Source: Acidimicrobiales bacterium (GTDB taxonomy: Bacteria > Actinomycetota > Acidimicrobiia > Acidimicrobiales > AC-14). Taken from it: 64,000 nucleotides of DNA. The stretch covers positions 9,965 to 73,964 of the forward strand of contig DATAAD010000082.1 in NCBI GenBank assembly GCA_036260295.1, in the 5' to 3' direction. Below the pieces are notes generated by a model. It was given only the letters and a program-made list of their open reading frames with translations, was not told the origin of the DNA and made no database searches. A program made the translations under genes and the position numbers. Positions 25,592-61,313 of this stretch are shown piece after piece (within the stretch, counting starts at the first letter, position 1; every line of letters begins with the position of its first letter).

Positions 25592-25600
25592 CCCTGATCC

Positions 25601-26977: not shown

Positions 26978-26993
26978 CGCTGGCCGGGCCCGT

Positions 26994-27848: not shown

Positions 27849-27859
27849 GCCGTGCAAGG

Positions 27860-29143
27860 TCAGGAGCCGCGCCGGGTGGCCGCGGCGAGCCGGCTGGCTA
27901 CGGGATGGACCCGTACGGGCAGCGATCGGACGCCTCGCACCGCACCCGACATCGGGCTGTGGGCCGCGGGCGGGTTCTCGTCGAGGAGCTCCGGCCAGAA
28001 CCGCTCGCGCATGTGGCCGAACACCATCTGGCCCTCCATCCGGGCGAGCGCGGCGCCGAGGCAGTAGTGGATGCCCCACCCGAAGGCAAGGGGCTTGTTG
28101 TCCGGGCGAGCCACGTCGAAGCGGTCGGGCTGCGGAAAGCGCTCCGCGTCGCGATTGGCAGCCCCCAGGAAGACGACGACCATGTCGCCGACCTGCAATC
28201 GCTCGCCGTCCACGTCGGCCGGCTCGAGCACCCTGCGCGTCACCCATTGGAACGGGGTGTCCCACCGCAGCATCTCCTCGACCGCCGAAGCGACGAGAGA
28301 GGCGTCCCCCCACAGGCGGGCCATCTCCTCGGGATGCCGGAAGAGGGCCAGCAGCCCGTTGCCGATGAGGTTCGTCGTGGTGACGAAGCCGGCCAGGAAG
28401 AGCACCAAGGCCATGGCCATGATGTCGCGCTCCGGCAGCCGATCACCGTCTTCGTCGACGGCGAGGAGGTCGGAGATCAGATCCTGCCGAGGGTGTCGGC
28501 GCCGATCGGCGATGACGTCCTGCAGGACGGACTCGAGCTCCTGCAAGGTGGCTTCGGCTCGGTCCAGATCCTCGTCGCCGGGGTCGACCCCGTAGACCAG
28601 GTCACCACCGTGGATGAACGGGCGCCGGAACCGGTCCTGCTCCTCGCGCGGTATCCCGACCAGGTCGCCGACCACCCCTACCGAGAGCGGCAGACCGAGA
28701 TCCACCATGAGGTCCGCATCCCCCATGCCGGCGATGCGGTCCAGGCAGCCGTCGACGATACCGATGACCGACGTCCGCAGTCCCGCCAGCCGCCCAGGTG
28801 TGAGCCCGGAGCCCAGGAGCCGGCGCATCCTGGTGTTCTCGGGTGGGTCGAGGTTGAGCTTTGTCAGGCCGACGCGCCGCTGGAACTCGAACCGCCTCTC
28901 CAACCGGCGCAGCTCCGCGTGGCTCAGGTCCCGCCGGGAGACCCGCTGCCCGCAGTGGCCCAAACGAGGGTCGAGGAGCAGTTGTCGGCACGTCCGATAT
29001 CCCACCGCGCACCAGATGCCGTCCTCGCCGCTGCGATGCAACGGCCCGTGCTCGAGAAGGGCGCGATACAGGGGGTACGGGTCGATCCGTCCGGCGTTGG
29101 TGAACCGGAGCTGATGGAGCGCGTCCTCAGCGGTAAGGGTCAT
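27860..29143 (-). CDS. cytochrome P450
   Basis: Heme loop FGWGIHYCLGAALARME, ExxR (EEMLRW) and I-helix LAGFVTTT. Confidence 0.9.
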   Translation of the reverse strand: MTLTAEDALHQLRFTNAGRIDPYPLYRALLEHGPLHRSGEDGIWCAVGYRTCRQLLLDPRLGHCGQRVSRRDLSHAELRRLERRFEFQRRVGLTKLNLDPPENTRMRRLLGSGLTPGRLAGLRTSVIGIVDGCLDRIAGMGDADLMVDLGLPLSVGVVGDLVGIPREEQDRFRRPFIHGGDLVYGVDPGDEDLDRAEATLQELESVLQDVIADRRRHPRQDLISDLLAVDEDGDRLPERDIMAMALVLFLAGFVTTTNLIGNGLLALFRHPEEMARLWGDASLVASAVEEMLRWDTPFQWVTRRVLEPADVDGERLQVGDMVVVFLGAANRDAERFPQPDRFDVARPDNKPLAFGWGIHYCLGAALARMEGQMVFGHMRERFWPELLDENPPAAHSPMSGAVRGVRSLPVRVHPVASRLAAATRRGS

Positions 29144-29189
29144 CGGAATCGCCTCTCCGCCGCCTGTCCGAACAGGTGCTCTTACTCTA

Positions 29190-29276
29190 CCAGAACCACC
29201 ACCGTCGCTGCAGTTCTGGAGCCACTTCTTTTCTTCCGACGACCTTGCATCGGGCCGGCATTAGAACTAGGTTCTA
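29190..29276. promoter_or_regulatory. two AGAAC/GTTCT inverted repeats in the AT-richer region upstream of the P450 gene and the small-protein/ABC genes
   Basis: CCAGAAC (29190-29196)-N16-GTTCTGG (29213-29219), and the perfect palindrome TAGAAC-TAG-GTTCTA (29262-29276). Confidence 0.35.
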
Positions 29277-29393
29277 GGGGAATCACCTTTCGTCAGGCAC
29301 AGTGGGCGATGCAGGCTGGCATCACACTCGGTGCATGATGCGTAGTCACATCCCTAGCGGCGAATGGGTCGCCCTGGTACGGAGGTGTTCAGC

Positions 29394-29669
29394 ATGGCCG
29401 AAGGTTCGGACCCGGTCCGGAATATCGTGGCTCTTGGAAGTGAGGCGCTTGTCCCGGGCGGCAGCCACTGGGTCAAGGGCGACATACCGTCGGGGCTCCT
29501 GCACACCGTTGCGGGATTGCTGGCGACCGCGGTCTGGGGCCTCCCGGGCCGAGCGCTCGTCTCAGCCAGCTCGTACAGCAAGGCGACGACGGGGAAGCGG
29601 CTGTTCGAGCACGTGCTCGGCCAGATCGGGAACAACTCCGGCACCACCCCGCCTCCTCCTGCCGGGTAA
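29394..29669 (+). CDS. small membrane protein, function unknown
   Basis: ATG at 29394, 8 nt after GGAGG (29381-29385). One clear hydrophobic segment (LLHTVAGLLATAVWGL). Confidence 0.35.
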   Translation: MAEGSDPVRNIVALGSEALVPGGSHWVKGDIPSGLLHTVAGLLATAVWGLPGRALVSASSYSKATTGKRLFEHVLGQIGNNSGTTPPPPAG

Positions 29670-29681
29670 GGGCAACCGCAA

Positions 29682-30023
29682 GTGCTTCCGAGCAAGTTCA
29701 AGCTCTATCTCGTCGGCGTGTGCTCCGGTGCCGTCCTGGTTGCCAACTACCGGCCGATCACCAAGGAGACCATCAAGGTCGGCGTTCGCAGCCTGACCAC
29801 GTTGCGGCGGATGGCCGCGCAGGGGGCCGAGAGCCTGTCCGACCTGACGGCCGAGGCTCTGTGGGAGATGGACGACAACGGCAGCAACGTCAACGCCCGG
29901 CCGGCGGGTGCGGCGTCACCCGCCGGCGGGAACGGTTCCGACGGGCGCCCGTCGAACGGGGCGGTCGTGAACGGGAACGGCGAAGCACCGAAGGAACAGG
30001 TGACGATTCGCTCCGAGGCATAG
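29682..30023 (+). CDS. small membrane protein, DUF5132-like architecture
   Basis: N-terminal TM (LYLVGVCSGAVLVA), then an amphipathic KxxIKVGV...AEAL region and a Gly/Asn-rich tail. Confidence 0.45.
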   Translation: MLPSKFKLYLVGVCSGAVLVANYRPITKETIKVGVRSLTTLRRMAAQGAESLSDLTAEALWEMDDNGSNVNARPAGAASPAGGNGSDGRPSNGAVVNGNGEAPKEQVTIRSEA

Positions 30024-30060
30024 CCGTTCGTCCCCGGCGGGGCGGTCCGAGCACAGCACA

Positions 30061-32070
30061 GTGACCGGGCCCGTCGCTCCGCGGTCGAGCATCCCGGGTC
30101 GAATCCGACTCGAAATACCTGGCCTCCGTTCGAAGGCAGCGTTGGCTCACGCGCTCGAGGACGCGGTGCGGGGCGTGCCTCATGTCAGGAGCGCGAAGGC
30201 GAACCCGGTGTCGGGCACGCTCCTCGTCACCTTTGACGACGATGCCGACCTCACCGCCCTGCTCGCCGGCATCCGGTCGCAGCTGGAAGCGCTCGAACGT
30301 TCCGAAGAGTGGGGTCTGAGGCGGTACCGTCCACCGCTGTCGCGCGTTCTCGGGCTGGGGGTTTCGGGACTGAAGGAGGCGGGCCCCTCGCTCCTCTTGA
30401 CCGCCGGGGCCCATTCGCTGAACATGCTCCAGGGCTTCTCCTTCATCGTGAGCGTCAATGTGGCCGGCGGGGACACCCTGGTATTCCTCCGCAAGCTGGG
30501 CGTCGAGAGCGTCGAGTCGCAGCTCAAGGCCGTCACCGCGGCCAGCATCGCTCTGACCTTCGGGGAGGTGTGGGCGCAGCATGCGAGGAACAAGTCGTGG
30601 CGCCGACTGGCCCGTACGACCGAGCACCGCCTTCGCACCACGATGTTCACCCACATCGAAGGTCAGGATCTCGCCTTCTTCGACCAGTACGGCACGGGAC
30701 AGCTCCTCAACCTGCTCACCGGTCAGGTCGACAACATCGGTGCGCTGGTCGAAAAGGCCGACGGCCTGTTCGAGTCGTGTATCACGGTGATCGTGGCCGG
30801 CACCACGCTGCTCAAAGCATCACCGGGATTGGCCCTTATCGCCGCCAGTGCCCTCCCATTGGTTGCCCTCCCGGCACGTGTATTAGGGCGTAGAGCAGAG
30901 GTTCTTTTCTCGAAAAGGGTGGAGCCTACGGCCACCCTGAACCAGGCATTGGAGAACATCCTCGGCGGCATGGTGGAGGTGAAGAGCTTCACCGCCGAGG
31001 ACCAGGAGACCGAGCGGGTCACGCGGCTGAGCGAGCAGGTCGTCGATGCGTCGGTCGACGCCTCGTCGGCCGCGTTGTTGCAGTCGACGGTGGTGCAGAA
31101 CCTGCTGTACCTGAGCGCGGCGCTGGCCATCGGGCACGGCGCCGGCCGCGTGGTCGCCGGCAGGATGCCCCACGCCCAGCTCATCCGGGCCGTGTACTGG
31201 ATCCCCCTGATGATGAGGGCGTTCGGCTTCACCGTCCACTCGTCCAACACGTACTACGGGGCCACGGCGGCCGCCCAGCGGCTCAGCAAGGTCCTCGATT
31301 CCACCCCCCGTATCCGCAGCGGCCCGGTCCGGCTCGAGCCCGGCGCCGTACGGGGGGAGATCGAGTTCCAGAACGTGACTTTCGCATATGACCCCGCCCG
31401 CCCCGTCCTGCGTGACGTCTCCTTTCGAGTTCCGGCGGGCACGAGCCTGGGCATCGTCGGGCCCAACGGGTCGGGCAAGAGCACGATGCTCCGCCTCCTC
31501 CTTCGCTTCTACGAGCCGGACGCGGGCCGGATACTCCTCGACGGCCACGACCTGCGAGACCTCGATCTCCGCGACCTGCGGACCGCGGTGGCCCTCGTGA
31601 ACCAGGACATCTACCTCTTCGAGGGGACCATCGGGCACAACGTGCGCTACGGGCGGCCCCGCGCCACGGACGAGGAGGTCGCACGAGCCCTCCAAGCGGA
31701 CGGCGTCGACCTCGCCGGCCTTGGGGCAGCCGACCTCGATGTGCGGGTGGGCGAGCGTGGGCAACGCCTCTCCGGCGGCCAGCGCCAGAGGGTGGCCCTC
31801 GCCCGGGCCCTGGTGAAGGACGCCCCCGTCCTGGTCCTCGACGAGGCGACCTCCCAGCTCGACGCCCAGACCGAGGCGGCCATGAGAGAACGGTTGCGAA
31901 GGGCGACCTCGGGCCGGACCTTGCTGCTCGTCGCCCACCGGCTCGGGACCATCCGCGACGCTGGCAAGATCGTCGTGCTCGACGGGGGCACGATCGTCGA
32001 GGAAGGTACGCACGCCAGCCTGGTCGAGCGAGGAGGTCTGTATTCCCACCTCTGGGGGTTGCAGGTGTGA
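30061..32070 (+). CDS. ABC exporter (fused TMD-NBD) with N-terminal HMA-like (ferredoxin-fold, no CxxC) domain
   Basis: N-terminal PGRIRLEIPGLRSKAALAHALEDAVRGVPHVRSAKANPVSGTLLVTFDDD. Walker A GPNGSGKST, signature LSGGQRQRVALARAL, Walker B VLVLDEATSQLD. Confidence 0.85.
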   Translation: MTGPVAPRSSIPGRIRLEIPGLRSKAALAHALEDAVRGVPHVRSAKANPVSGTLLVTFDDDADLTALLAGIRSQLEALERSEEWGLRRYRPPLSRVLGLGVSGLKEAGPSLLLTAGAHSLNMLQGFSFIVSVNVAGGDTLVFLRKLGVESVESQLKAVTAASIALTFGEVWAQHARNKSWRRLARTTEHRLRTTMFTHIEGQDLAFFDQYGTGQLLNLLTGQVDNIGALVEKADGLFESCITVIVAGTTLLKASPGLALIAASALPLVALPARVLGRRAEVLFSKRVEPTATLNQALENILGGMVEVKSFTAEDQETERVTRLSEQVVDASVDASSAALLQSTVVQNLLYLSAALAIGHGAGRVVAGRMPHAQLIRAVYWIPLMMRAFGFTVHSSNTYYGATAAAQRLSKVLDSTPRIRSGPVRLEPGAVRGEIEFQNVTFAYDPARPVLRDVSFRVPAGTSLGIVGPNGSGKSTMLRLLLRFYEPDAGRILLDGHDLRDLDLRDLRTAVALVNQDIYLFEGTIGHNVRYGRPRATDEEVARALQADGVDLAGLGAADLDVRVGERGQRLSGGQRQRVALARALVKDAPVLVLDEATSQLDAQTEAAMRERLRRATSGRTLLLVAHRLGTIRDAGKIVVLDGGTIVEEGTHASLVERGGLYSHLWGLQV

Positions 32071-33796: not shown

Positions 33797-34630
33797 GTGA
33801 CGCTCAGCGGCGCCGACGTCCGCCGTCTCCTCGACCGGCACGGGCTGGCGCCGAGCCGGGCCCGTGGGCAGAACTTCGTGGTCGACCCCAACACCGTCCG
33901 CCGCATCGCTCGCCTGGCCGAGGTGGGCCCCGGTGACCGCGTGGTCGAGATCGGGGCCGGTCTCGGGTCGCTGACCCTGGCCCTGGCCGAGACGGGGGCG
34001 TCGGTCACGGCCATCGAGGTGGACTCGCGGCTCGTGCCTGTGCTGCGGACGGTCGTCGAACCGGTAGGGGTGGCCGTGGTCGAGGGCGATGCCCTGCGCC
34101 TCGACTGGGCCTCGTTGCTCGGCGAGGAGTCCTGGGTGCTCGTCGCCAACCTGCCCTACAACGTGGCCACGCCGCTGGTCGCCGACCTGCTGGACGAGGT
34201 GCCGGCCATCGGCCGGATGCTGGTGATGGTCCAACGGGAGGTCGCCGAGCGGCTGGCCGCCGGCCGGGGCGAGGAGGCCTACGGGGCGGTCTCGGTGAAG
34301 GTCGCCTACTGGGCCACGGCCAAGGTGGTCGGTCGGGTCCCGCCCACCGTCTTCCACCCGGTGCCCAAGGTGGAGTCCGCCCTGGTACGCATCGAGCGCC
34401 GCGCCGCACCCGCGGTCGGGCCCGAGGTCGACCGGGAGTGGCTGTTCAGGCTCGTCTCCGCCGGGTTCGGGCAGCGCCGCAAGATGCTCCGCCGTTCGCT
34501 GGCCGCGCTGGTGACGCCGGAGGCGTTCGCAGCCGCCGAGGTGCGCCCGGAGGCCCGGGCCGAGGAGCTGTCGGTCGTCGACTGGGGGAGACTGGCCGCG
34601 TGCACGTCGAGCGGGCGCCCGCCAAGCTGA
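33797..34630 (+). CDS. rsmA: 16S rRNA (adenine1518/1519-N6)-dimethyltransferase RsmA/KsgA
   Basis: GQNFVVDPN, SAM-binding VVEIGAGLGSLT and NLPYNVATP. Confidence 0.9.
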   Translation: MTLSGADVRRLLDRHGLAPSRARGQNFVVDPNTVRRIARLAEVGPGDRVVEIGAGLGSLTLALAETGASVTAIEVDSRLVPVLRTVVEPVGVAVVEGDALRLDWASLLGEESWVLVANLPYNVATPLVADLLDEVPAIGRMLVMVQREVAERLAAGRGEEAYGAVSVKVAYWATAKVVGRVPPTVFHPVPKVESALVRIERRAAPAVGPEVDREWLFRLVSAGFGQRRKMLRRSLAALVTPEAFAAAEVRPEARAEELSVVDWGRLAACTSSGRPPS

Positions 34631-35310
34631 CCGTCTCCCTGCGGGTGGCCGGCGTGCGGGACGACGGCCACCACCTCCTCGACGCCGAGATGGTGACGCT
34701 CGACTACGGCGACGTCCTGGAGATCGGCGAGGGCGACGGGCTGGAGGTGGTCGGTCCGTGGGCCTCGGGTGTCCCTGTCGGGGAGGAGAACCTGGTCCGC
34801 CGGGCGCTGGCGGCGACAGGGCGCCGGGCCTTCGTGCGGCTGGACAAGCAGGTGCCGGCGGGCGCCGGGCTGGGAGGGGGGTCGGCCGACGCCGCCGCCG
34901 TGTTGCGCTGGGCGGGCTGCCGCGACGTGGGCGTAGCCGCCCGGCTGGGGGCCGACGTCGCCTTCTGCGTGGTCGGCGGACGGGCCCGGGTGCGGGGTGT
35001 GGGCGAGGTGGTCGAGCCCCTTCCGTTCGTCGACCGGACGTTCACCTTCCTCGTGCCCCCGCTGGCGGTAGACACCGGCCGCGTCTATCGGATGTGGGAC
35101 GAGTTGGGCGGCCCGGCGGCGCCGGAGGGGTCGGTCAACGACCTCGAGGTCGCCGCCCTCGCCGTCGCGCCCGAGCTGGCCGGGTGGCGGGACCGGCTGG
35201 CCCGGGCCACCGGGGAGCGGCCGCAGCTGGCCGGCAGCGGTGGGAGCTGGTTCGTGGAGGGCGACTTCCCCGGGGAGGACAGGATCGTCGCCCGTACCGT
35301 CTCGCGCTGA
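34600..35310 (+). CDS. ispE: 4-(cytidine 5'-diphospho)-2-C-methyl-D-erythritol kinase
   Basis: APAKLTVSLRV start and GHMP-kinase motif KQVPAGAGLGGGSADAAAV. GTG at 34600 overlaps the rsmA 3' end. Confidence 0.8.
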   Translation: MHVERAPAKLTVSLRVAGVRDDGHHLLDAEMVTLDYGDVLEIGEGDGLEVVGPWASGVPVGEENLVRRALAATGRRAFVRLDKQVPAGAGLGGGSADAAAVLRWAGCRDVGVAARLGADVAFCVVGGRARVRGVGEVVEPLPFVDRTFTFLVPPLAVDTGRVYRMWDELGGPAAPEGSVNDLEVAALAVAPELAGWRDRLARATGERPQLAGSGGSWFVEGDFPGEDRIVARTVSR

Positions 35311-35399
35311 CCGGGACCGGCGCGGCGCACCGCCGCGGCGCCACCTCGCCTCGGCTCCCGGGAGGTGCAAGACTCGGCGGTTCGGCGACGGAGGATCAC

Positions 35400-36782
35400 A
35401 TGGTGAGCTCGCTGGCGAGCGCGAACGAGAAGTTCTGTGGCCCCGCCCGTCCGTGCGCCAGCACCGTTGCCGCCCGGACCACGTCGGCCATCGGCCGTCG
35501 GCCGGCGCCGGCCTGGTCGCCCCGCCCGTCGACGATCGGACCGGAGCCGGGCTCGGCGGTCCCGTCGCTGTCAGGGCCGGTCCGGCTCCAGCGGGCGTGC
35601 ACGTGCGCCTCCGGCGGGAGCGGCGGTGGCTGCTCCGCCTGTCAGGACACGGACGCAGGGTCCCTGCGACGTGTGCCCGTCACCGCCGGGGGCCGGCCCG
35701 CGACCGCCCCGCCCGAGGTGCTCTCGGTGCTTCGTGGCCCCGGGGCCCCCCTGGCACCGCCCAGCCGTGTCTTCATGGAGTCGCGACTGGGGCGCGACCT
35801 CGGAGCCGTCCGCGTCCACACCGGGCCGGCCGCCGCCTCCTCGGCCGCAGCGGTCAGGGCGCGGGCCTACACGGTGGGGGCCGACATCGTCTTCGGGGCC
35901 GGGCAGTACGCCCCCCTCACCGTCGACGGCCGCCGGCTCCTGGCCCACGAGCTGGCCCACGTCGCCCAGCAGGGGGCCCGGCGGGTGCCGGAGCCCGCCT
36001 CACTCGAGGTGGGCGCTCCGGGCACCGCGCTCGAACAGGAAGCCGACCGAGTCGCCGACGCAGTCGCCGGAGGAGGGCCGGCCCCGGCGGCCACGACCGC
36101 CCCTCGGGGAGTGTCGAGAGCGGACACCGGCCCCCTCGTTTCCGCGCCGGTCGCGGCCCCGGTCTGCCCGGCGCTGCCGGCGTCGACCCCGGCATCGTGT
36201 TCCGCGCGCCACGACGCGTACTGCCTGGCCGCCCGTTGCCGTCCCGACAACCCCTGGCTGGCGTGCGCGTGCCGGGCTTCCGGCGACGTCTGCCGCGCCG
36301 TCGACGCCTTCCTCTTCCGAGGCCTCGAGGGGGCCGGACTGCTGCTCTGCATCCAGTCCACGGTGCCGATCTGGAACACGTTCTCGGCCGTCAGGGACAC
36401 CGTCGCCAAGGGCGCCTGGCTGCTTGCCACCAACGCGTGCATCTGGCCCCACTGGCGGGCTGCCTTCGACGCCATCCATGACCCGACCTCGCCGGTGCCG
36501 ACCGGCCTCACCGCGGAGTGGGCGACGGCGGTGACCACGTGCCGGACAGCGGGTGTGGCCAGCACGGCCTGCTGCCGGGCCCACGTCACCGCTGAGCAGA
36601 CGGCCATCGACCGTTGCGGTTTTTACCCGACGGCGCGATTCGGCCGGCTGCCGACGAACGTCCCGTATGCGCCGGCGTGCGGGTATGTCGTCGCGTTCCT
36701 CGCCCCGCCGCCCCCGTTCACGGGCGACTTCGGCGTGGTCGGCGACCGCATCAGCTACGGGAACGCCCGCTGCTGCTCCTAG
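35400..36782 (+). CDS. DUF4157 (HExxH) domain protein with Cys-rich C-terminal domain of unknown function; candidate CIS cargo/effector
   Basis: GGAGGA RBS. LQRACTCASGGSGGGCSAC motif. DUF4157 core MESRLGRDLGAVRVHTG...ARAYTVGADIVFGAGQYAP...GRRLLAHELAHVAQQG. About 220-aa C-terminus with many Cys and no recognisable family. Confidence 0.75.
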   Translation: MVSSLASANEKFCGPARPCASTVAARTTSAIGRRPAPAWSPRPSTIGPEPGSAVPSLSGPVRLQRACTCASGGSGGGCSACQDTDAGSLRRVPVTAGGRPATAPPEVLSVLRGPGAPLAPPSRVFMESRLGRDLGAVRVHTGPAAASSAAAVRARAYTVGADIVFGAGQYAPLTVDGRRLLAHELAHVAQQGARRVPEPASLEVGAPGTALEQEADRVADAVAGGGPAPAATTAPRGVSRADTGPLVSAPVAAPVCPALPASTPASCSARHDAYCLAARCRPDNPWLACACRASGDVCRAVDAFLFRGLEGAGLLLCIQSTVPIWNTFSAVRDTVAKGAWLLATNACIWPHWRAAFDAIHDPTSPVPTGLTAEWATAVTTCRTAGVASTACCRAHVTAEQTAIDRCGFYPTARFGRLPTNVPYAPACGYVVAFLAPPPPFTGDFGVVGDRISYGNARCCS

Positions 36783-36807: not shown

Positions 36808-36847
36808 GAGGCGGCGGTGCACGGAGGCCGACCTCGGCCGCCTCTTT
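36808..36847 (+). terminator. GC hairpin followed by TTT after the first DUF4157 gene
   Basis: GAGGCGGC (36808-36815) pairs with GCCGCCTC (36837-36844), with an inner GGCCGA/TCGGCC stem, then TTT. Confidence 0.4.
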
Positions 36848-36930: not shown

Positions 36931-37686
36931 ATGAACATGGCGGTGCCGGCTCGGCGACGGGCGAGCCGGGAGGCGGAGCACCCTTCGGCCCACCTGCAGC
37001 TCCTCGGTGGCTTCGAGCTCGTCTGCGACGGCGAGGCCGCCTCCCTGCCGCTCGGCGCCCAGCGGCTCATCGCCTTTCTCGCCATCCGGCGCCAGCGACT
37101 CCTCAGAGCCCACGTCGCCGGTGCCCTCTGGTTGGAGCTCCCCGACAGCCGGGCGGGTGCCAACCTCCGCTCGTCGCTGTGGAGGTTGAACTGCATGGAC
37201 CGCCACCTGGTGGAGGCGTCACCGACGTCGCTGCGCCTGTCCGACTCGGTGTCCGTCGACCTCTGGGAGGCGGAGCGGAGCGCGTACCACGTCCTGCGGG
37301 GTGACGCCCGGACCGAGGACGTCGACGACCTGGAGGTCCGCGTCCTGGTCCTCGACCACGAGCTGCTCCCGGACTGGTACGAGGAGTGGATGGTGTACGA
37401 GCAACAGCGCTTCCACCAGCTCCGCCTTCACGCCCTCGAGACCCTGTGCCTGCGGCTCACCGCCGCCAGGCGCTTCGCCCAGGCCATCGACGCCGGCCAG
37501 CGCGCCGTTGCCGCCGAACCGCTTCGAGAAACCGCCCACCGGGCGCTGATCCTCGCCCACCTGGAGGAGGGGAACCGGAGCGAGGCCGTCAAGCACTACA
37601 GGCGCTTCGCCGAGCGGCTCCACGACGAGCTCGGCTGCCATCCGTCCGAGTCGATGGAACGACTGGTGGCGCCGCTCGCCATGTGA
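36931..37686 (+). CDS. SARP-type regulator (wHTH + BTAD), CIS-locus associated
   Basis: LQLLGGFELVCDGEAASLPLGAQRLIAFLAI (SARP wHTH) and BTAD ...AHRALILAHLEEGNRSEAVKHYRRFAERLHDELGCHPSESM. Confidence 0.75.
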   Translation: MNMAVPARRRASREAEHPSAHLQLLGGFELVCDGEAASLPLGAQRLIAFLAIRRQRLLRAHVAGALWLELPDSRAGANLRSSLWRLNCMDRHLVEASPTSLRLSDSVSVDLWEAERSAYHVLRGDARTEDVDDLEVRVLVLDHELLPDWYEEWMVYEQQRFHQLRLHALETLCLRLTAARRFAQAIDAGQRAVAAEPLRETAHRALILAHLEEGNRSEAVKHYRRFAERLHDELGCHPSESMERLVAPLAM

Positions 37687-37785: not shown

Positions 37786-38628
37786 ATGGCGAATGCGGTT
37801 GCTCGGGGGAACGGCCCCGTCGAGGTCGTCAACGCGAGCGGAGCCCTGATCTCGATCCCGTTGAGCTCGATCACGTTCGACGACACCGGCCGCGCCGTCG
37901 GCAGCGGTCAGCTCTATGCCGACAACCAGGCCCTCCTCGACCCCTACCTGGCCCGCCTGGTCCGCGACGGGTTGCTGGAACCGGGACCGCAGCCACCGCC
38001 GGTGCCGATCCTCGTCATCACGGCCAAGACCGCAGGTGCCATCGGCAACGACATCAGCATCGGCTTCGCCAACCTCCGCCCCGACCCGTCGGACAACACC
38101 AGGAAGGTCTTCGACGCCACCCTCACGCAGGTCGACACGTACCGCGACCTCGTGGCGGACAACTCGATCAAGGCCGTCCTCGGCAGCTCCACCGGCACCG
38201 GCAGTCGCCCCGGACTGGTGTTCGTCTCCAGCGGGGCTGCCCCCATCTCGCTTCCCAAGGTCGGCACCTACGCCCCGGACGGCGGGGGTGAGTTCACGAT
38301 CCCGAAGAGCACGGGGGCGGGCAACGCCTTCAAGCTGAAACTGCGAGCGGTTGACGCGGCGGCGACGAGCTCGGTCGAGATCCTGTCCTCGACGGAGGAC
38401 CCCGCGCCCGGCCGGTTTACCTTGGTCGCCAGCTGGTCCCGGACCATCGTCGGGGTGAAGGTGACGGACCTCGACTCCGCGGCCAACTTCGGGCCCTTCA
38501 TCACGGTGAAGGGCCCCGACGGCACCTCCCCACCGACCACGCCGCCACCCCCAGGGTCGGTGGTGCTCTCCGGCGGCTCCGACCAAGCCGCCGCCCAGCC
38601 CGCATCGGCAACGGTGACCGCCCCCTGA
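37786..38628 (+). CDS. hypothetical protein, first gene of the CIS operon
   Basis: GAGGAGGGG RBS. 280 aa with a Pro/Thr-rich C-terminal tail. I recognise no family. Confidence 0.6.
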   Translation: MANAVARGNGPVEVVNASGALISIPLSSITFDDTGRAVGSGQLYADNQALLDPYLARLVRDGLLEPGPQPPPVPILVITAKTAGAIGNDISIGFANLRPDPSDNTRKVFDATLTQVDTYRDLVADNSIKAVLGSSTGTGSRPGLVFVSSGAAPISLPKVGTYAPDGGGEFTIPKSTGAGNAFKLKLRAVDAAATSSVEILSSTEDPAPGRFTLVASWSRTIVGVKVTDLDSAANFGPFITVKGPDGTSPPTTPPPPGSVVLSGGSDQAAAQPASATVTAP

Positions 38629-38668
38629 GGGGCACGCCACAACAGCACCGGCCGCTCGAGGAGGACCC

Positions 38669-40210
38669 ATGCCAGTCACCCCCACCTATCCGGGCCTCTA
38701 CTTGGAGGAGCTGCCGAGCAACGCCCGCACCATCACGGCCGCGCCGACGTCGGTGGCCGTGTTCGTGGGCTACGGGCACCCGTACAAGACCCGGCAGCCC
38801 GACGTCGCCGTCCGGATCTTCAGCTTCACGGAGTACGAGCGCGAGTTCGGAGGGCTCTTCGCCAGCGGCGTCTTCGACCCCAACCTGGGGCACGCCGTCA
38901 ACCAGTTCTTCCTCAACGGCGGCTCCGTGGCCTGGGTGGTCGGCGTGCAGGCCAGCTATCGGACGAACACGGGCAGCATCATCGCCCCCGACCCACCGCC
39001 CGGGCCGACGGCGACGATCGGCGGTCTCGTCTTCACCGGCCGGGAGCCGAGCGACATGGTCGAGATGCGGGTGACGATCGACAACGTGAGCGGCACCACG
39101 GGCGACATTACCGTCACCTACGGGGCGGTGATGTTGGAGACGTACCGCGGCGTGAGCGTCGACCCGGCGGATGCGAACTTCGTCGAGACGGTCCTCGGCA
39201 CCGCTTCGAGTCCGAGGTCGGCTCTCGCCACCGTGGCCCCTACTCCGGGACCCGCCTACCCGGCGACGATGCCGGCGGGCTCCCAGCCGTTCAGCATGAA
39301 CCTCCCGGCCAACCTGGCGACGACGTTCAGCGCCGCCGACTTCGGCCCGGTCTTCGCCGCCGACAGCTCGCTCGACAAGGTCGACATCTTCAACATCCTG
39401 TGCGTCCCCGGCATCGCCGATCGCGACGTGCAGAGCAGGGCGCTGGTCTTCGCCGAGCGCAAGCTCGCCTTCATGGTCGTGGACCCTCCCCCCCAAGCCA
39501 TCGCCGACGGCGGGAGCCCGGCTTCGATGGAGACGCTGGTCGGGATCGTCCCGAAGAGCACGAACGGCGCCCTCTACTTTCCGTACCTGATGACGACGAA
39601 CCCGCTCACGGGCCTGCCGATGGCACTCCCGCCGAGCGGCTTCGTCGCCGGCAGGTACGCCGACACCGACCTCCGGCGGGGGGTCTGGAAGGCCCCGGCC
39701 GGGCTGGAGACCCAGATCGCGACGGCGTCGGGTGTGGCCCCGACCGGGCAGATGACGAACCAACGGCAAGGTGTCCTCAACGAGCTGGGGGTCAACTGCC
39801 TCCGGACGTTCCCCGATTCCGGCACCGTCGTCTTCGGAGCGCGAACTCTCGTGACGGCGAACGACGCCTTCCAGCAGTGGCGCTACGTGCCCGTCCGGCG
39901 CATGGCTCTGTTCGTCGAGCAGACCCTGCTGCGCAACCTCGGGTGGGCGGTGTTCGAGCCGAACGACGTGCCCCTCTGGGACGCGCTGCGCACGACGGTG
40001 AACGACTTCATGCTGGGCCTGTTCAACCAGGGGGCGTTCCAGGGGGAGGCGCCCAGCCAGGCGTTCAAGGTGGTCTGCGACCGCACGACGACCACCCAAG
40101 CCGACGTCGACAACGGGATCGTCAACATCATCGTCGCCTTCCGTCCGTTGAAGCCGGCCGAGTTCGTCATCATCAAGATCGCCCAGCTCGCCGGCCAGAC
40201 GCCGGGATGA
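38669..40210 (+). CDS. contractile tail sheath protein (Afp2/Pvc2/Cis2-like)
   Basis: Canonical sheath N-terminus MPVTPTYPGLYLEELPS...VAVFVGY and C-terminal domain GVNCLRTFPDSGTVVFGARTL. Confidence 0.9.
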   Translation: MPVTPTYPGLYLEELPSNARTITAAPTSVAVFVGYGHPYKTRQPDVAVRIFSFTEYEREFGGLFASGVFDPNLGHAVNQFFLNGGSVAWVVGVQASYRTNTGSIIAPDPPPGPTATIGGLVFTGREPSDMVEMRVTIDNVSGTTGDITVTYGAVMLETYRGVSVDPADANFVETVLGTASSPRSALATVAPTPGPAYPATMPAGSQPFSMNLPANLATTFSAADFGPVFAADSSLDKVDIFNILCVPGIADRDVQSRALVFAERKLAFMVVDPPPQAIADGGSPASMETLVGIVPKSTNGALYFPYLMTTNPLTGLPMALPPSGFVAGRYADTDLRRGVWKAPAGLETQIATASGVAPTGQMTNQRQGVLNELGVNCLRTFPDSGTVVFGARTLVTANDAFQQWRYVPVRRMALFVEQTLLRNLGWAVFEPNDVPLWDALRTTVNDFMLGLFNQGAFQGEAPSQAFKVVCDRTTTTQADVDNGIVNIIVAFRPLKPAEFVIIKIAQLAGQTPG

Positions 40211-40226
40211 GCTGAGGAGGGGCGCC

Positions 40227-40739
40227 ATGTCCAAGCCGTTCAGCGTCAACGCCAACCGGTTCGAGCCGTATTCGACGTCGCGCTTCGTGATCTTCTTCGA
40301 GAAGTCGACCACGCCGGTGGCCGGCGTGAGCAAGGTGACGGGGATCAAGCGGTCGACGGACCCCATCGAGTACAAGGAGGGAGGGAACCCCCTGGCCCGC
40401 AAAGGGCTGGGACGTACCAAGTACGAGCCGATCACCCTCGAGCGGGGGGTCACCCACGACACCACCTTCGAGGAGTGGGCCAACGCTCCCCAGGTGCTTG
40501 ACACCGGAGCGGCGACGGCAAGCCTGAAGAACCTGAGGAAGAACATCCAGATCGTGTTGCAGAACGAGCGCGGCCAGATGGTGCACCGCTACCTCGTGTA
40601 CCGCTGCTGGGTGTCGGAGTACCAGGCGTTGCCCGACCTGGACGCCGGGGCCAACGCGGTGGCCATCGAGCACATCAAGCTCGAGCACGAGGGATGGGAA
40701 CACGACCTCAGCGTCTCCGAGCCGAACCAGAACGTGTGA
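40227..40739 (+). CDS. tail tube protein (T4 gp19 / Afp1-like)
   Basis: FVIFFEKSTTPVAGVSKVTGIKRSTDPIEYKEGGNP...KYEPITLERGVTHD, typical of the conserved phage tail region/gp19 family. Confidence 0.85.
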   Translation: MSKPFSVNANRFEPYSTSRFVIFFEKSTTPVAGVSKVTGIKRSTDPIEYKEGGNPLARKGLGRTKYEPITLERGVTHDTTFEEWANAPQVLDTGAATASLKNLRKNIQIVLQNERGQMVHRYLVYRCWVSEYQALPDLDAGANAVAIEHIKLEHEGWEHDLSVSEPNQNV

Positions 40740-45710: not shown

Positions 45711-45711
45711 G

Positions 45712-46989: not shown

Positions 46990-46992
46990 CGG

Positions 46993-59423: not shown

Positions 59424-59501
59424 GCAGTGATGTTCGCCGTCGACTCCCCGCCGGTGAGGTGCGCCAGTGATTGCTCCCGCAGTGCATAGACGGGTGCCGC
59501 C

Positions 59502-61313
59502 GTGCTGAGTGCGCCGACGACCGAGTCGTCCGCCCGGGCCAGCGCCCCTCGGGCGGCTGCGCCTCGCTCCGTCCCCGCCCGCGCCCGTCCCGTCCTCCGG
59601 GCCAGCGCCGTCCCCACCGGTGCTCACCTCCTGCAGCGGGCGTGCTCGACGAAGGGGCCCGTCGACGCGGCCCACGAATGCGCCGAGTGCCGCGCCGGCC
59701 GGGCCTCTCGGGCCGGCGGCCGGGCCGGGCCGCCGGTGGTGGCCCCCTCTCGGGCCCCCATCGCCGTGCAGCGAGCCTGTGCCTGCGGGCCGGGTGCCGG
59801 AGGCAGTTGTGACGGCTGTGCCCAGGAGGTGTCGCCGTTGAGGCGGCGGGCTGTCGACGGCCATGCCATCGGCGCACCGGCCGCCCCCCCAGTGGCCGCG
59901 GCCGCCCTCCGCGCGGGCGGCGTTCCCCTCGACGGCTCGACCCGGGCGTCGCTCGAACCCCGCTTCGGCCGAGACCTCGGTGCCGTCCGGGTGCACTCGG
60001 ACTCGGTCGCCGCCGCCGGGGCGGCCGCTGTCGGTGCTCGGGCCTACACCGTCGGGGCCCACATCGTCTTCGGAGCCGGCCAGTACGCCCCAGCCACCGC
60101 CGAAGGCCGCCGGCTGCTGGCCCACGAGCTCACCCACGTGCTCCAGCAGGGCCCGGTGGCGGCTCCGGGCGGGTCGTCGCTCGAGGTCGGCGCGGCCGAC
60201 AGCCCCTTCGAGCGGGAGGCCGACCGGGTGGCGGATGCCGTGGTGCGCGGGCTCGACCTCCCTGTCGTCGTCCCGGGCGGCCCGCCCGCGCTACGGAGAG
60301 CGTGCGGGGAGGCTGCCATCGGGCCGCCGCCTCCCGGGTGCAACCTCACCTTCGCCACCCCCAGCGGCGCACGGTTCCTCTTCAACCGCGCGTGCGACGA
60401 CTGGGCGCCGGGGCAGCAGGCCGCGTTCGAGAGCGCGGTCGACGCGGTGGTTCCCGGAGCCACCGTCAACCTCTTCGGGATCGCCAGCACCGACGGGCCG
60501 GTCGGGTTCAACCTCAGCCTTTCGTGCGCCCGGCTGGCGGAGGCCCGCGCCATCGTCGTCGCCAAGGGCAAGAGTGGTCAGCTGCGGAGGAGCGAGGCCG
60601 TCGGCCCGCAGGGGTTGGCCGGGGACGTCACATTCCGGGCCGTGGCCATGGAGGTCATCGGGCCGGCGCCCCCGCCTCCGCCGGCGGCGACCACGACCCG
60701 GACCTTCGAGGTCGTCGTGAAGAGCTTCATCCGCACCATCGGCACGACCGCGGGCGCGATGTTCTGCCCGACCTTCCTCGGCGACCCGTTCGTCGGTCCT
60801 ACCGCTCGGCTGCAGGGCTTGGCCGTGGCGACCGACCTCATGTTCAGCGAGACCGCTCCGACCGCGGCCAAGGACACGCACTACAGGCTGTTCTCCCGGC
60901 GGACGTTCACGTTGACGTGCCGCCACGGCGTCCCGGTCTCGGCCCGGGCCTCGGCCCTGGACACCGACGTGGGCCTCGAGGGCCCGTTGGTGCCGCCGCC
61001 GCTGATCATCTTCACCGACACCGTCACACCGACACCGACCGGCGGGCTGCACTTCTCCTGGTCGGGGGAGGGCCGGCCCCATCTGGCCGCCGAGCCCGCG
61101 TTCCAGAGCATCTGTCCCCGGCTCTCGGTCTTCATCTGGCACCACATCGAGGGCGACGTGGATTGCGGAGGCGTTCGCATCACCGCCTTCAGCGGGAGCC
61201 GCTTCCCGAGCCGCCGGGCCTACGTCGACGGGGTGGTGACGCGCGACGTCCATCAGGGGACGTTCAACCGGCTCTGGGAATCGGCCCCGGGCGCACCGAC
61301 CCGGGTCCGCTGA
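59502..61313 (+). CDS. DUF4157 (HExxH) domain protein with OmpA-like segment and unknown C-terminal domain; candidate CIS cargo/effector
   Basis: LQRAC...C..C and VQRACAC...C..C motifs. LEPRFGRDLGAVRVHSD...ARAYTVGAHIVFGAGQYAP...GRRLLAHELTHVLQQG. VNLFGIASTDGPVGFNLSLSCARLAEARAIVVAKG resembles OmpA/MotB C-domains. Start codon uncertain. Confidence 0.75.
   Translation: MLSAPTTESSARASAPRAAAPRSVPARARPVLRASAVPTGAHLLQRACSTKGPVDAAHECAECRAGRASRAGGRAGPPVVAPSRAPIAVQRACACGPGAGGSCDGCAQEVSPLRRRAVDGHAIGAPAAPPVAAAALRAGGVPLDGSTRASLEPRFGRDLGAVRVHSDSVAAAGAAAVGARAYTVGAHIVFGAGQYAPATAEGRRLLAHELTHVLQQGPVAAPGGSSLEVGAADSPFEREADRVADAVVRGLDLPVVVPGGPPALRRACGEAAIGPPPPGCNLTFATPSGARFLFNRACDDWAPGQQAAFESAVDAVVPGATVNLFGIASTDGPVGFNLSLSCARLAEARAIVVAKGKSGQLRRSEAVGPQGLAGDVTFRAVAMEVIGPAPPPPPAATTTRTFEVVVKSFIRTIGTTAGAMFCPTFLGDPFVGPTARLQGLAVATDLMFSETAPTAAKDTHYRLFSRRTFTLTCRHGVPVSARASALDTDVGLEGPLVPPPLIIFTDTVTPTPTGGLHFSWSGEGRPHLAAEPAFQSICPRLSVFIWHHIEGDVDCGGVRITAFSGSRFPSRRAYVDGVVTRDVHQGTFNRLWESAPGAPTRVR

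What the first reader, a model, noticed from the sequence alone, without database searches (positions are those of the whole stretch)
35400..36782. Upstream DUF4157 (HExxH) protein with a Cys-rich C-terminal domain I cannot assign to any family: candidate novel CIS cargo
Seen in sequence: an N-terminal disordered region is followed by LQRACTCASGGSGGGCSAC and then the DUF4157 core (RLGRDLGAVRVHTG...YTVGADIVFGAGQYAP...LLAHELAHVAQQG, which contains HExxH). The last ~220 aa carry roughly 17 Cys by eye (CPALPASTPASCSARHDAYCLAARCRPDNPWLACACRASGDVC ... CCRAHV ... GNARCCS). Established knowledge: DUF4157 is reported as a recurrent N-terminal module of toxins encoded next to eCIS loci. Inference: the C-terminal module is the payload and may be a new toxin fold. 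The gene lies outside the structural operon, has its own RBS and is followed by a hairpin terminator.
Basis: partly seen in the sequence, partly recalled or inferred. Interest (0 to 1): 0.7.

Follow-up and report, generated by a model that had tools for sequence, protein, structure and literature searches.

The report
CIS cargo with new cysteine-rich toxin domain
This gene beside a phage-tail-like injection machine encodes a modular cargo protein whose last ~210 residues are an undescribed, cysteine-rich, all-helical toxin domain that other bacteria place at the tip of secreted RHS toxins, so it is very probably a real payload, most likely acting on the target cell envelope.

Summary
Window 35400-36782 (+) is a real 460-aa gene (GC3 0.89). 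It has a disordered N-terminus, a 4-Cys LQRACxC…CxxC motif, a DUF4157/eCIS_core domain (PF13699, E=2e-29, HELAH) and a 211-aa C-terminal module with 16 Cys, about 7x the local background. It sits at the 5' edge of a complete contractile injection system (CIS) locus.

The C-module has no Pfam, NCBIfam or PDB-sequence match. Confident AlphaFold models (pLDDT 89-98, nine helices) have no Foldseek match in PDB or BFVD.

An exhaustive profile search found 94 representative proteins carrying the module, all metagenomic. The module follows DUF4157 in CIS loci (all informative loci). In other carriers it starts ~5 residues after the RHS core-end DPxGL motif of Sec-secreted RHS proteins, the canonical toxin-tip position.

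RHS copies are followed by membrane-anchored BamE-like, exported HEAT-like or 4-TM candidate immunity proteins. CIS copies have none. Cysteines are gained and lost in pairs, and peptidoglycan-binding modules are often inserted.

Best reading: a CIS-loaded toxin needing disulfide formation that acts outside the target cytoplasm; its biochemical activity is unknown. This is a new toxin family in a known architecture, of moderate interest.

The parts
35390..35395 (+). Shine-Dalgarno-like GGAGGA, 4 nt upstream of the ATG
   Evidence: Read directly from the sequence.
35400..36782 (+). Whole gene: 460-aa modular CIS cargo candidate (stop codon included)
   Evidence: Translation; GC3 0.89; 50-64% identical homologues.
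35400..35747 (+). N-terminal region, residues 1-116: predicted disordered, basic (pI 10), rich in Ala/Gly/Pro/Ser; inferred loading signal
   Evidence: AlphaFold pLDDT <50 for 1-58 and 68-96; composition. By analogy with AlgoCIS Cgo1/Cgo2, whose disordered N-terminal domain is required for loading (bioRxiv 10.64898/2026.05.27.728243).
35586..35642 (+). Conserved 4-Cys motif LQRACTCASGGSGGGCSAC (residues 63-81; C67, C69, C78, C81)
   Evidence: Recurs in the window's second DUF4157 protein and in more than 12 homologues. Local rise in pLDDT and a short strand at 62-65. Function unknown.
35748..35978 (+). DUF4157 / eCIS_core domain (PF13699), residues 117-193, with HELAH at 183-187 (nt 35946-35960)
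   Evidence: hmmscan E=2.1e-29, covering profile positions 1-77 of 79. Confident alpha/beta model with HELAH on helix 175-191.
36027..36071 (+). Helix after the core, LEQEADRVADAVAGG (residues 210-224), a recurrent 'E(R/Q)EADRVA' element of DUF4157 proteins
   Evidence: Helix 210-224 in the model. The same motif occurs in the paralogue and in homologues.
36075..36146 (+). Ala/Pro/Thr-rich linker, residues 226-249
   Evidence: pLDDT <50 for 227-239; composition. Other family members insert an OmpA-like module here.
36147..36779 (+). Cys-rich all-alpha C-terminal toxin module, residues 250-460 (16 Cys; family-wide conserved Y274, W286, C289, S294, K337, W340, C347, W374, C381, C391, C392, E399, Q400, C406, D443, R450, G454, C458, C459)
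   Evidence: AlphaFold pLDDT 88.6 and pTM 0.83 alone, 92-98 within the full-length model. 94 representatives found by profile search. Conservation map. RHS toxin-tip position.
36823..36842 (+). GC-rich hairpin followed by UUUG, 41 nt after the stop codon; possible terminator, not significant
   Evidence: Present in the minimum-free-energy fold, but z=-0.6 against shuffles. Not called by the consensus scan.
36931..37686 (+). BTAD/SARP-type transcriptional activator between the cargo gene and the CIS operon
   Evidence: PF03704 E=5.6e-18. BTAD regulators next to eCIS loci are noted in PMC8213781.
37786..59423 (+). CIS structural operon: sheath 38618-40210, tube 40152-40739, Pvc16_N from 42040, AAA ATPase to 45710, tube-initiator-like 45711-46694, GPD-like hub 46990-48123, gp25 48968-49345, Baseplate_J to 51782, DUF6519 56403-59423
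   Evidence: Pfam scans.
59490..61313 (+). Second DUF4157 cargo-type gene at the 3' edge of the island (coordinates are the stop-to-stop frame): same N-terminal layout, an OmpA-like stretch, and a different unassigned C-terminus
   Evidence: PF13699 E=1.7e-31; translation. Its OmpA-like stretch recurs between DUF4157 and the Cys-rich module in L009, L011 and L013-L015. No Pfam hit for its C-terminus.

Best explanation
The gene encodes a modular effector (cargo) of the adjacent contractile injection system. Inferred from AlgoCIS Cgo1/Cgo2: the disordered basic N-terminal region (residues 1-116, including a conserved 4-Cys LQRxCxC…CxxC motif) is the loading signal, recognised with the help of the locus's Pvc15-like AAA ATPase. 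Shown: it is followed by a DUF4157/eCIS_core domain with an intact HExxH; the role of that domain in cargo biology is still unknown in the field. Shown: a flexible linker leads to a ~210-residue all-alpha C-terminal module. This module belongs to an undescribed polymorphic-toxin domain family, used as the tip of DUF4157 CIS cargo and as the C-terminal tip of Sec-secreted RHS proteins immediately after their DPxGL self-cleavage motif. Inferred: its 16 cysteines form about 8 disulfides, so the domain folds into its active state only in an oxidising compartment. It therefore acts outside the target's cytoplasm, on the cell envelope (peptidoglycan, its lipid-linked precursors, or the outer face of the membrane). 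It stays inert in the producer's reducing cytoplasm, which would explain why CIS-borne copies have no immunity gene. Candidate catalytic or binding residues are the invariant E399-Q400 with D443, R450, K337, S294 and Y274, plus four conserved Trp. The exact biochemical activity is unknown.
For: Domain layout. CIS locus including an AAA ATPase. Precedents: DUF4157 proteins with a disordered N-terminal domain and a variable C-terminal domain are loaded into the AlgoCIS tube, and the N-terminal domain is required for loading. A DUF4157 protein co-purifies with Streptomyces CIS baseplate proteins (PMC11126660). DUF4157 is strongly enriched in eCIS toxins (PMC8213781; PMC11297309). Toxin module: of 68 full-length carriers, 24 have DUF4157, 9 have RHS repeats, 1 has PT-HINT and 1 has SLH. 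In seven RHS carriers the module starts 4-9 residues after DPxGL, and it ends within 0-3 residues of the C-terminus in nearly all close members. CIS linkage: the window, L001, L002, L003, L004-6, L011 and L012 all have CIS genes flanking the gene. Extracytoplasmic action rests on five lines. (i) The RHS carriers P0046 and P0064 have Sec signal peptides, and P0046 has SLH domains. (ii) The downstream partners are a membrane-anchored BamE-like pair (L018 and L019, E~1e-12), an exported HEAT-like pair (L016 and L007, E=4e-16) and a 4-TM protein (L017). (iii) Peptidoglycan-binding modules occur in carriers: OmpA in 11, PG_binding_1 and PG_binding_3 in 1 each. (iv) Cys residues are gained and lost in pairs (both present / both absent / discordant): 275-291 (46/13/0), 317-427 (34/25/0), 347-406 (56/3/0), 256-280 (32/26/1), 267-298 (43/14/2). 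The pairs 275-291 and 267-298 sit symmetrically about the turn of the helix 267-280 / helix 285-304 hairpin. (v) Precedents: the DUF4157 cargo BDI_2459 is toxic in E. coli only when sent to the periplasm (PMC12210884), and T6SS effectors can need DsbA in the target cell (PMC5792426, listed). No immunity homologue occurs in the window or in CIS loci.
Against: No toxicity, loading or disulfide data exist for any family member. The pairwise Cys pattern is partly confounded by phylogeny: 256, 280, 317 and 427 all travel together with the close clade. Cys counts per domain are even in only 38 of 59 sequences. The gene is at the 5' edge of the locus, upstream of the regulator, whereas eCIS toxins usually lie at the 3' end or inside the operon, as the homologues do. 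CIS of Actinomycetota studied so far (Streptomyces) act inside the producer and are not released, so delivery to another cell's envelope is an assumption. In P0087 the module is internal and followed by PT-HINT, and a few DUF4157 carriers have 50-110 residues after it. Two RHS loci (L008, L020) show no clear immunity gene. The BamE match is below Pfam's cut-off (18.7 against 23.2 bits).
Confidence: 0.6

Rival explanations
1. The module is a toxin that acts in the target's cytoplasm, and its cysteines bind metal (Zn, Fe-S or Cu) instead of forming disulfides. The delivery logic is the same (CIS cargo or RHS tip), but the site of action is intracellular.
For: CIS cargo is made in, and usually delivered to, reducing cytoplasm. 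The only recurring, though insignificant, Foldseek hits with similar chemistry are Cys-lined helical copper storage proteins (Csp/Ccsp; E 4-9, probability 0.03-0.06). The N-terminal CxC…CxxC motif looks like a metal knuckle.
Against: Cysteines are lost in twos, not in sets of three or four ligands. The RHS carriers are Sec-exported. All five candidate immunity proteins are membrane-anchored or exported. Peptidoglycan-binding modules are fused to the family. The Csp matches have TM-scores of at most 0.27.
Confidence: 0.15
2. The protein is a producer-directed lysis or cell-death factor, not an inter-cellular weapon. It damages the producer's own envelope to release CIS particles, or executes CIS-mediated programmed death as described for Streptomyces.
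For: There is no immunity gene next to any CIS-borne copy. The gene lies beside the BTAD regulator, outside the structural operon. Geller et al. speculated that eCIS toxins may contribute to lysis. Streptomyces CIS act within the producer (PMC11126660, plus established knowledge). Peptidoglycan-binding modules occur in relatives.
Against: The protein has no signal peptide or TM segment that would take it to its own envelope (maximum KD-19 of 1.5). The same module serves as an RHS tip with cognate immunity genes, which is the signature of inter-cellular antagonism. The disordered N-terminal domain plus DUF4157 layout is that of loaded cargo.
Confidence: 0.15
3. The C-terminal module is not a toxin. 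It is a binding, adhesion or structural module (for example a cell-wall or receptor-binding domain), or a chaperone-like accessory to other cargo.
For: No catalytic motif of a known enzyme class was recognised. The protein is helical, rich in Trp and disulfide-stapled, as some binding domains are. DUF4157 proteins have been proposed to act as chaperones in trans (PMC11297309).
Against: The position directly after the RHS DPxGL cleavage motif is, by established knowledge of RHS systems (PMC3482391, PMC8636562), the encapsulated toxin position. Conserved adjacent membrane or exported partner genes fit immunity proteins. Family-wide invariant polar residues (E399, Q400, D443, R450, K337, S294, Y274) suggest an active site.
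Confidence: 0.08

Closest known systems
AlgoCIS cargo proteins Cgo1/Cgo2 (Algoriphagus machipongonensis) and the wider class of DUF4157-containing eCIS-associated toxins (EATs)
   Same: Three-part layout: a disordered N-terminal domain, DUF4157 with HExxH, and a variable ordered C-terminal domain. Encoded in or next to a CIS locus that has a Pvc15-like AAA ATPase.
   Different: The C-terminal domain is unrelated to any tested EAT domain. It is exceptionally Cys-rich (16 Cys) and is shared with Sec-secreted RHS toxins. The gene is at the 5' edge, upstream of the regulator. It carries a conserved 4-Cys motif in the N-terminal domain that is not mentioned in the papers read. The host is an uncultured Acidimicrobiales bacterium.
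RHS / polymorphic toxin C-terminal 'toxin tip' domains (Zhang et al. 2012, PMC3482391; Rhs autocleavage, PMC8636562)
   Same: The module is a C-terminal cassette exchanged between different delivery scaffolds. In RHS carriers it begins just after DPxGL and is followed by small, rapidly diverging membrane or exported partner genes.
   Different: The window's copy is on a DUF4157 scaffold, not RHS, and has no adjacent immunity gene. The domain family itself is not in Pfam or NCBIfam.
Lipocone superfamily toxins (TelC, Min-Wnt, CapCone; Burroughs, Nicastro & Aravind 2025, PMC12419801)
   Same: Soluble all-alpha toxin tips of polymorphic toxins, often fused to peptidoglycan-binding domains and active only outside the cytoplasm. 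Their immunity proteins include membrane-anchored BamE-like and 4-TM proteins, the same classes found downstream of RHS-borne copies here. An invariant Glu on one helix and Asp…Arg…Gly near the last helix loosely recall the Lipocone Glu(H3)/Asp(H4)/Gly pattern.
   Different: No detectable similarity. TelC, SAA and Wnt structures are absent from the Foldseek hits. hhalign against SAA gives 0.45% probability. There are no Pfam hits to Wnt, SAA, VanZ or the DUF families named in the paper. The canonical H2 histidine is not conserved across the family. The domain has 9 helices and about 210 residues, not a 4-helix cone. The paper does not describe a Cys-rich bacterial family or any DUF4157/CIS link.
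BDI_2459, DUF4157 cargo of the Parabacteroides distasonis CIS (PMC12210884)
   Same: A DUF4157 CIS-encoded protein whose toxicity in E. coli appears only when it is directed to the periplasm. This is a functional precedent for envelope-acting DUF4157 cargo.
   Different: No sequence relationship of the C-terminal parts was found or tested. BDI_2459 reportedly lacks the disordered N-terminal domain.

Membership tests
DUF4157-type CIS effector (eCIS-associated toxin, Cgo-like cargo) | PF13699 (DUF4157/eCIS_core) domain above the curated cut-off, with HExxH | tested here: met
   101.9 bits against a cut-off of 22, E=2.1e-29, residues 117-193; HELAH at 183-187.
DUF4157-type CIS effector (eCIS-associated toxin, Cgo-like cargo) | Encoded within or next to a CIS gene cluster | tested here: met
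   Sheath, tube, Pvc16_N, AAA ATPase, hub, gp25 and Baseplate_J lie 1-16 kb downstream on the same strand. Homologues sit in CIS loci.
DUF4157-type CIS effector (eCIS-associated toxin, Cgo-like cargo) | Intrinsically disordered N-terminal region upstream of DUF4157 (loading sequence) and a loading AAA ATPase in the locus | tested here: met
   pLDDT <50 for residues 1-58 and 68-96 (this is a prediction). AAA domain PF00004, E=5e-28, in the ORF ending at 45710.
DUF4157-type CIS effector (eCIS-associated toxin, Cgo-like cargo) | Physical presence in purified CIS particles, and toxicity of the C-terminal domain | not testable with these tools
   Requires proteomics of particles and expression assays. 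The organism is an uncultured MAG.
Polymorphic-toxin C-terminal toxin domain (RHS-CT type) | The same C-terminal module is found on unrelated delivery scaffolds, at the extreme C-terminus | tested here: met
   24 DUF4157, 9 RHS, 1 PT-HINT and 1 SLH among 68 carriers. A tail of 0-3 residues after the module in nearly all close members. Exceptions: P0087, P0048, P0050, P0052.
Polymorphic-toxin C-terminal toxin domain (RHS-CT type) | In RHS carriers the module starts directly after the core-end PxxxxDPxGL cleavage motif | tested here: met
   DPxGL position followed by module start: P0046 2468/2473, P0064 746/751, P0071 1271/1276, P0063 187/192, P0070 150/156, P0051 364/373, P0088 124/130.
Polymorphic-toxin C-terminal toxin domain (RHS-CT type) | Cognate immunity gene immediately downstream | tested here: inconclusive
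   RHS loci have two conserved pairs (L018/L019 BamE-like anchored; L016/L007 HEAT-like exported) and one 4-TM protein. No clear candidate in L008 or L020. None in the window or any CIS locus. Immunity function is untested.
Lipocone superfamily (TelC/Min-Wnt/SAA/CapCone) | Four-helix cone fold resembling TelC, SAA or the Wnt core | tested here: not met
   Foldseek against the PDB with two confident models gave best E=2.2-3.8 and TM of at most 0.26 for the C-domain model. No TelC, SAA or Wnt entry appears among the 41-56 listed hits.
Lipocone superfamily (TelC/Min-Wnt/SAA/CapCone) | Conserved His (H2) / Glu (H3) / Asp (H4) active-site positions, and profile similarity to member families | tested here: inconclusive
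   E399 is invariant and D443 is 90% conserved, but no His is conserved family-wide (H351 only in the close clade). No Pfam hits to Wnt, SAA or VanZ. The authors' 30 family alignments were not available.
Zincin-like metallopeptidase (for the DUF4157 part) | HExxH on an active-site helix within a zincin fold similar to solved metallopeptidases | tested here: inconclusive
   HELAH lies on helix 175-191, preceded by beta strands. The full-length Foldseek search returned no metallopeptidase; the query included long disordered parts, which weakens the test.
Cys-rich helical copper storage proteins (Csp/Ccsp) | Four-helix bundle with a Cys-lined core, with significant structural similarity | tested here: not met
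   Only insignificant Foldseek hits (E 4-9, probability of at most 0.06, TM of at most 0.27).
Secreted phospholipase A2 | Pfam PLA2 family match, CCxxHDxCY catalytic motif and Ca-binding loop | tested here: not met
   No Pfam hit at E<=1 in 30 members. The CC motif here reads CCxA(H/Q)VxAEQ, with no HD dyad.

The most novel reading that the evidence does not exclude
The Cys-rich module is a new protein fold and a new class of envelope-targeting toxin whose activity is gated by oxidative folding. It is synthesised and loaded reduced and harmless, and it becomes toxic only after about 8 disulfides form in the target's periplasm or wall compartment. This would explain why CIS-borne antibacterial toxins can lack immunity genes. 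It would also imply that this actinobacterial CIS delivers cargo into the envelope compartment and not into the cytoplasm.
Probability: 0.25. Interest if true: 0.7.

Novelty: new variant of a known kind. Interest (0 to 1): 0.5.

Why it matters
What eCIS particles inject is still largely unknown. About half of predicted eCIS toxins are DUF4157 proteins whose C-terminal domains are unannotated (PMC11297309). This case turns one such 'dark' C-terminus into a defined family of at least 94 sequence clusters. The family now has domain boundaries, conserved residues and a confident model. It also has independent evidence of a toxin role (RHS tips with immunity-type partners) and a testable site of action. 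If the redox-gating idea is right, it would answer a question raised by Geller et al. 2021: how antibacterial eCIS toxins are made without immunity genes. The domain would also add a new disulfide-stapled helical scaffold to the toxin repertoire, and a useful pairing of cargo and loading sequence for engineered CIS delivery.

Tried and rejected
(1) Known-family assignment of the C-domain failed in every library tried. These were Pfam and NCBIfam with the single sequence and with 30 diverse members at E<=1, PDB sequences by phmmer and by profile, and Foldseek against PDB and BFVD. All returned nothing, or only noise.

(2) The word-indexed homologue search found only 7 clusters, which would have suggested an orphan. 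The exhaustive HMM search corrected this to 94.

(3) The GTDB species-representative scan found no relatives, and the broad alignment A4 was too divergent for pattern design. The metagenome scan gave 7 mostly short loci.

(4) Lipocone membership was considered seriously because the immunity types and peptidoglycan-binding fusions match. It is not supported by structure or profile tests.

(5) A phospholipase A2-like 'CC..H' idea was rejected, because the His is not conserved and there is no HD dyad.

(6) A copper-storage or metal-cluster reading rests only on insignificant Foldseek hits.

(7) A pore-forming toxin is unlikely, because no segment reaches TM-level hydrophobicity (maximum KD-19 of 1.5).

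(8) The hairpin terminator is not distinguishable from shuffled sequence.

(9) P0005 was suspected to be a truncated DUF4157 protein. In-frame stops upstream show it is a stand-alone OmpA-like + module protein, and it still lies in a CIS locus.

(10) P0007 looked like a divergent short member but is a frameshift artefact.

(11) Cys-pair geometry could not be checked in 3D, because model coordinates are not exposed by the tools.
Full report
OBSERVATION. Third-codon-position GC is 0.89 over the ORF and stays high in every 150-nt block, which marks a real gene in this 72-76% GC window. GGAGGA lies at 35390-35395, 4 nt before the ATG. Pfam places PF13699 (DUF4157, now named 'eCIS core domain') at residues 117-193 with E=2.1e-29 and finds nothing else. 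NCBIfam and PDB sequences give nothing. HELAH is at residues 183-187. The protein has 22 Cys, and 16 of them fall in residues 240-460. That is 7.4% against 1.0% in 23 other ORFs of the window, P~9e-10.

A full-length AlphaFold model built on 25 homologues gives the following layout:
- Residues 1-58 and 68-96 have pLDDT below 50, so they are predicted disordered.
- DUF4157 (about residues 100-225) is a confident alpha/beta domain, with HELAH on helix 175-191.
- Residues 227-239 form a floppy linker.
- The C-terminal module (residues 250-460) is a nine-helix domain with pLDDT 92-98.

The hairpin after the stop codon exists, but it folds no better than shuffled sequence (z=-0.6) and the consensus scan did not call it as a terminator. 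The identical public protein (P0001, an Acidimicrobiales MAG) is annotated as 351 aa, starting at codon 110. It has the ribosome-binding site, high GC3 upstream of codon 110, and the motif LQRxCxC…CxxC (residues 63-81). That motif is conserved in the window's second DUF4157 protein and in more than 12 homologues.

CONTEXT. Downstream on the same strand lie a BTAD/SARP regulator (36931-37686) and a complete CIS operon. The operon encodes sheath, gp19-like tube, Pvc16_N, AAA ATPase, a tube-initiator-like protein, a GPD-like hub, gp25, Baseplate_J and DUF6519. A second DUF4157 protein sits at about 59490-61313, at the far edge. The roughly 26-kb island lies between rsmA/ispE and glmU-like/prs housekeeping genes, so the two cargo-type genes bracket it.

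THE C-TERMINAL MODULE IS A FAMILY, NOT AN ORPHAN. A word-indexed search found only 7 clusters. An exhaustive HMM search of 1.84 billion representatives with a six-sequence profile found 94 at E<=1e-3 and 35 at E<=1e-30, and the module is nearly always at the extreme C-terminus. All sampled clusters are metagenomic singletons or doubletons. None of 185,579 GTDB species representatives has a close relative.

Pfam on 68 full-length carriers shows these partner domains:

| Partner domain | Carriers (of 68) |
|---|---|
| DUF4157 (eCIS_core) | 24 |
| OmpA | 11 |
| RHS repeats | 9 |
| PT-HINT | 1 |
| SLH | 1 |
| PG_binding_1 | 1 |
| PG_binding_3 | 1 |

Many of the unannotated carriers are visibly RHS C-terminal fragments. 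In seven RHS carriers the module begins 4-9 residues after the RHS core-end DPxGL motif. From established knowledge of RHS systems (PMC3482391, PMC8636562), that is where the encapsulated toxin begins. The RHS carriers P0046 and P0064 have Sec signal peptides, and P0046 also has SLH domains.

CIS LINKAGE OF THE DUF4157-BORNE COPIES. Every non-RHS locus with informative flanks is a CIS locus:
- L001 and L002 carry the gene at the 3' end, after DUF6519, among tandem DUF4157 genes.
- In L003, L011 and L012 the gene lies between the ATPase or DUF4157 genes and the tube-initiator and baseplate genes.
- In L004-6 a stand-alone OmpA-like + module protein is followed by a tube-initiator-like gene.
- The remaining short contigs carry tandem DUF4157 genes.

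Several carriers insert, between DUF4157 and the module, the same OmpA-like stretch that the window's second DUF4157 protein has.

NO KNOWN RELATIVE. Pfam and NCBIfam scans of 30 diverse module sequences at E<=1 show no recurrent family. A family profile against PDB sequences gives only noise. Foldseek gave nothing significant with the confident module model (pLDDT 88.6, pTM 0.83) or with the full-length model. Best results were E=2.2-3.8 in PDB and E=0.64 in BFVD, and the module model had TM of at most 0.31. AlphaFold DB was not available, so 'new fold' remains provisional.

CLUES TO MECHANISM.

(a) Conservation. Family-wide conserved residues are Y274, W286, C289, S294, K337, W340, C347, W374, C381, C391, C392, E399, Q400, C406, D443, R450, G454, C458 and C459. 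Eight Cys are near-universal, and eight more characterise the CIS-borne clade.

(b) Cysteine pairing. Cys residues appear and disappear in pairs:

| Pair | Both present | Both absent | Discordant |
|---|---|---|---|
| C275-C291 | 46 | 13 | 0 |
| C317-C427 | 34 | 25 | 0 |
| C347-C406 | 56 | 3 | 0 |
| C256-C280 | 32 | 26 | 1 |
| C267-C298 | 43 | 14 | 2 |

The pairs 275-291 and 267-298 lie symmetrically about the turn between helices 267-280 and 285-304, as disulfide staples of a helical hairpin would. This is inference.

(c) Downstream partners of the RHS-borne copies are all membrane-bound or exported:
- L018 and L019 have homologous proteins of about 125 aa with N-terminal anchors (E~1e-12). 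One has a sub-threshold BamE match.
- L016 and L007 have homologous proteins of about 345 aa with signal-like N-termini and weak HEAT matches (E=4e-16).
- L017 has a 4-TM protein.

None of these has a homologue in the window or in any CIS locus.

(d) The module has no TM-like segment, so it is unlikely to be a pore-former.

(e) Precedents. The DUF4157 cargo BDI_2459 is toxic only in the periplasm (PMC12210884). T6SS effectors can depend on DsbA in the target cell (PMC5792426, listed). Lipocone toxins such as TelC act only outside the cell and have BamE-like or 4-TM immunity proteins (PMC12419801).

BEST EXPLANATION (confidence about 0.6 overall). The protein is CIS cargo: an N-terminal disordered loading region, DUF4157, a linker, and a disulfide-dependent toxin module that acts on the target's envelope.
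- Shown: the architecture, the CIS linkage, membership of an RHS-shared toxin-tip family, and the absence of any known relative.
- Inferred: loading through the N-terminal domain and the AAA ATPase (by analogy with AlgoCIS), the disulfides, the extracytoplasmic site of action, and redox-based self-protection that makes immunity genes unnecessary in CIS loci.
- Unknown: the chemistry. The invariant Glu-Gln, Asp and Arg, the four conserved Trp and the peptidoglycan-binding fusions point to a cell-wall glycan or a lipid-linked precursor as substrate, but this is a guess (about 0.3).

RIVALS. The alternatives are a cytoplasmic toxin whose Cys residues bind metal (0.15), a producer-directed lysis or death factor (0.15), and a non-toxic binding or accessory module (0.08). 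Evidence for and against each is given in the rival entries.

COMPARISON WITH KNOWN SYSTEMS. The protein meets every computationally testable criterion for a DUF4157-type eCIS effector, and two of three criteria for a polymorphic-toxin tip; the immunity criterion is only partly met. Lipocone membership was tested and is not supported. There is no Foldseek hit to TelC, SAA or Wnt, hhalign against SAA gives 0.45%, the canonical His is not conserved, and the paper describes no Cys-rich bacterial family or DUF4157 link. Lipocone toxins remain the closest functional analogue. Copper-storage proteins and phospholipase A2 were rejected.

NOVELTY AND SCORE. The architecture is the commonest class of predicted eCIS toxin: 983 of 1130 DUF4157 EATs have no other annotated domain (PMC11297309). 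The overall kind is therefore known. What is new:
- The payload family itself, which is undescribed and has no fold match.
- Its sharing between CIS cargo and Sec-dependent RHS toxins.
- The paired-cysteine signature.
- The contrast between immunity-bearing RHS copies and immunity-less CIS copies.

This is a new variant of a known kind, with interest 0.5. The most novel reading not excluded is a redox-gated envelope toxin that explains immunity-less eCIS toxins and implies envelope-compartment delivery. I give it a probability of about 0.25 and an interest of about 0.7 if true.

Noticed in passing
window 59490-61313 (+): A second DUF4157/eCIS_core protein (PF13699, E=1.7e-31) sits at the 3' edge of the CIS island. 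It has two LQRAC…CxxC motifs, an OmpA-like stretch that recurs in many carriers of the Cys-rich module, and a further ~250-aa C-terminus with no Pfam match. It is probably a second cargo with another unassigned payload.
   Followed up: partly
window 35586-35642 (residues 63-81); also in the 59490-61313 protein and in P0008-P0035: A conserved 4-Cys motif, LQR-x-C-x-C-(Gly-rich)-C-x-x-C, lies in the otherwise disordered region upstream of DUF4157 and is sometimes duplicated. It looks like a metal knuckle and is not mentioned in the eCIS cargo papers read. It may be part of the loading signal.
   Followed up: partly
window 35400-35727 compared with public protein P0001: The public annotation of the identical protein (351 aa, Acidimicrobiales MAG) starts at codon 110 and cuts off the conserved N-terminal motif and the disordered region. 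This is probably a mis-called start.
   Followed up: yes
window 33797-35310 and 61695-63794: The ~26-kb CIS island lies between the housekeeping genes rsmA/ksgA-ispE and glmU-like-prs, and the two DUF4157 genes form its outermost genes. In other Actinomycetota these housekeeping genes are close neighbours (from memory, not tested), which suggests the island is an insertion.
   Followed up: no
L018 1251-1634, L019 1299-1676; L016 4861-5886, L007 7317-8378; L017 3265-3771: Three unrelated classes of candidate immunity proteins follow RHS-borne copies of the module: a membrane-anchored BamE-like protein, an exported HEAT-like protein and a 4-TM protein. All are extracytoplasmic or membrane proteins, and none has a homologue in the window.
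   Followed up: partly
L002 10181-10706: The homologue P0007 is split by a frameshift: the module continues in a second frame. This is probably a long-read assembly error, so its apparent truncation is an artefact.
   Followed up: yes
P0087 (1168 aa), residues 826-977 and 1108-1167: In this RHS protein a weaker match to the module is internal and is followed by a Pretoxin-HINT domain at the protein's end. This is an exception to the 'always at the tip' rule, and may be a cassette array or a truncated gene.
   Followed up: no
window 22000-32000: This stretch has lower GC (0.66-0.71) than the rest of the window (0.72-0.76). It was not examined.
   Followed up: no
window 37786-38628 (+): The first gene of the CIS operon (280 aa, directly upstream of the sheath gene and overlapping it) has no Pfam match.
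   Followed up: no
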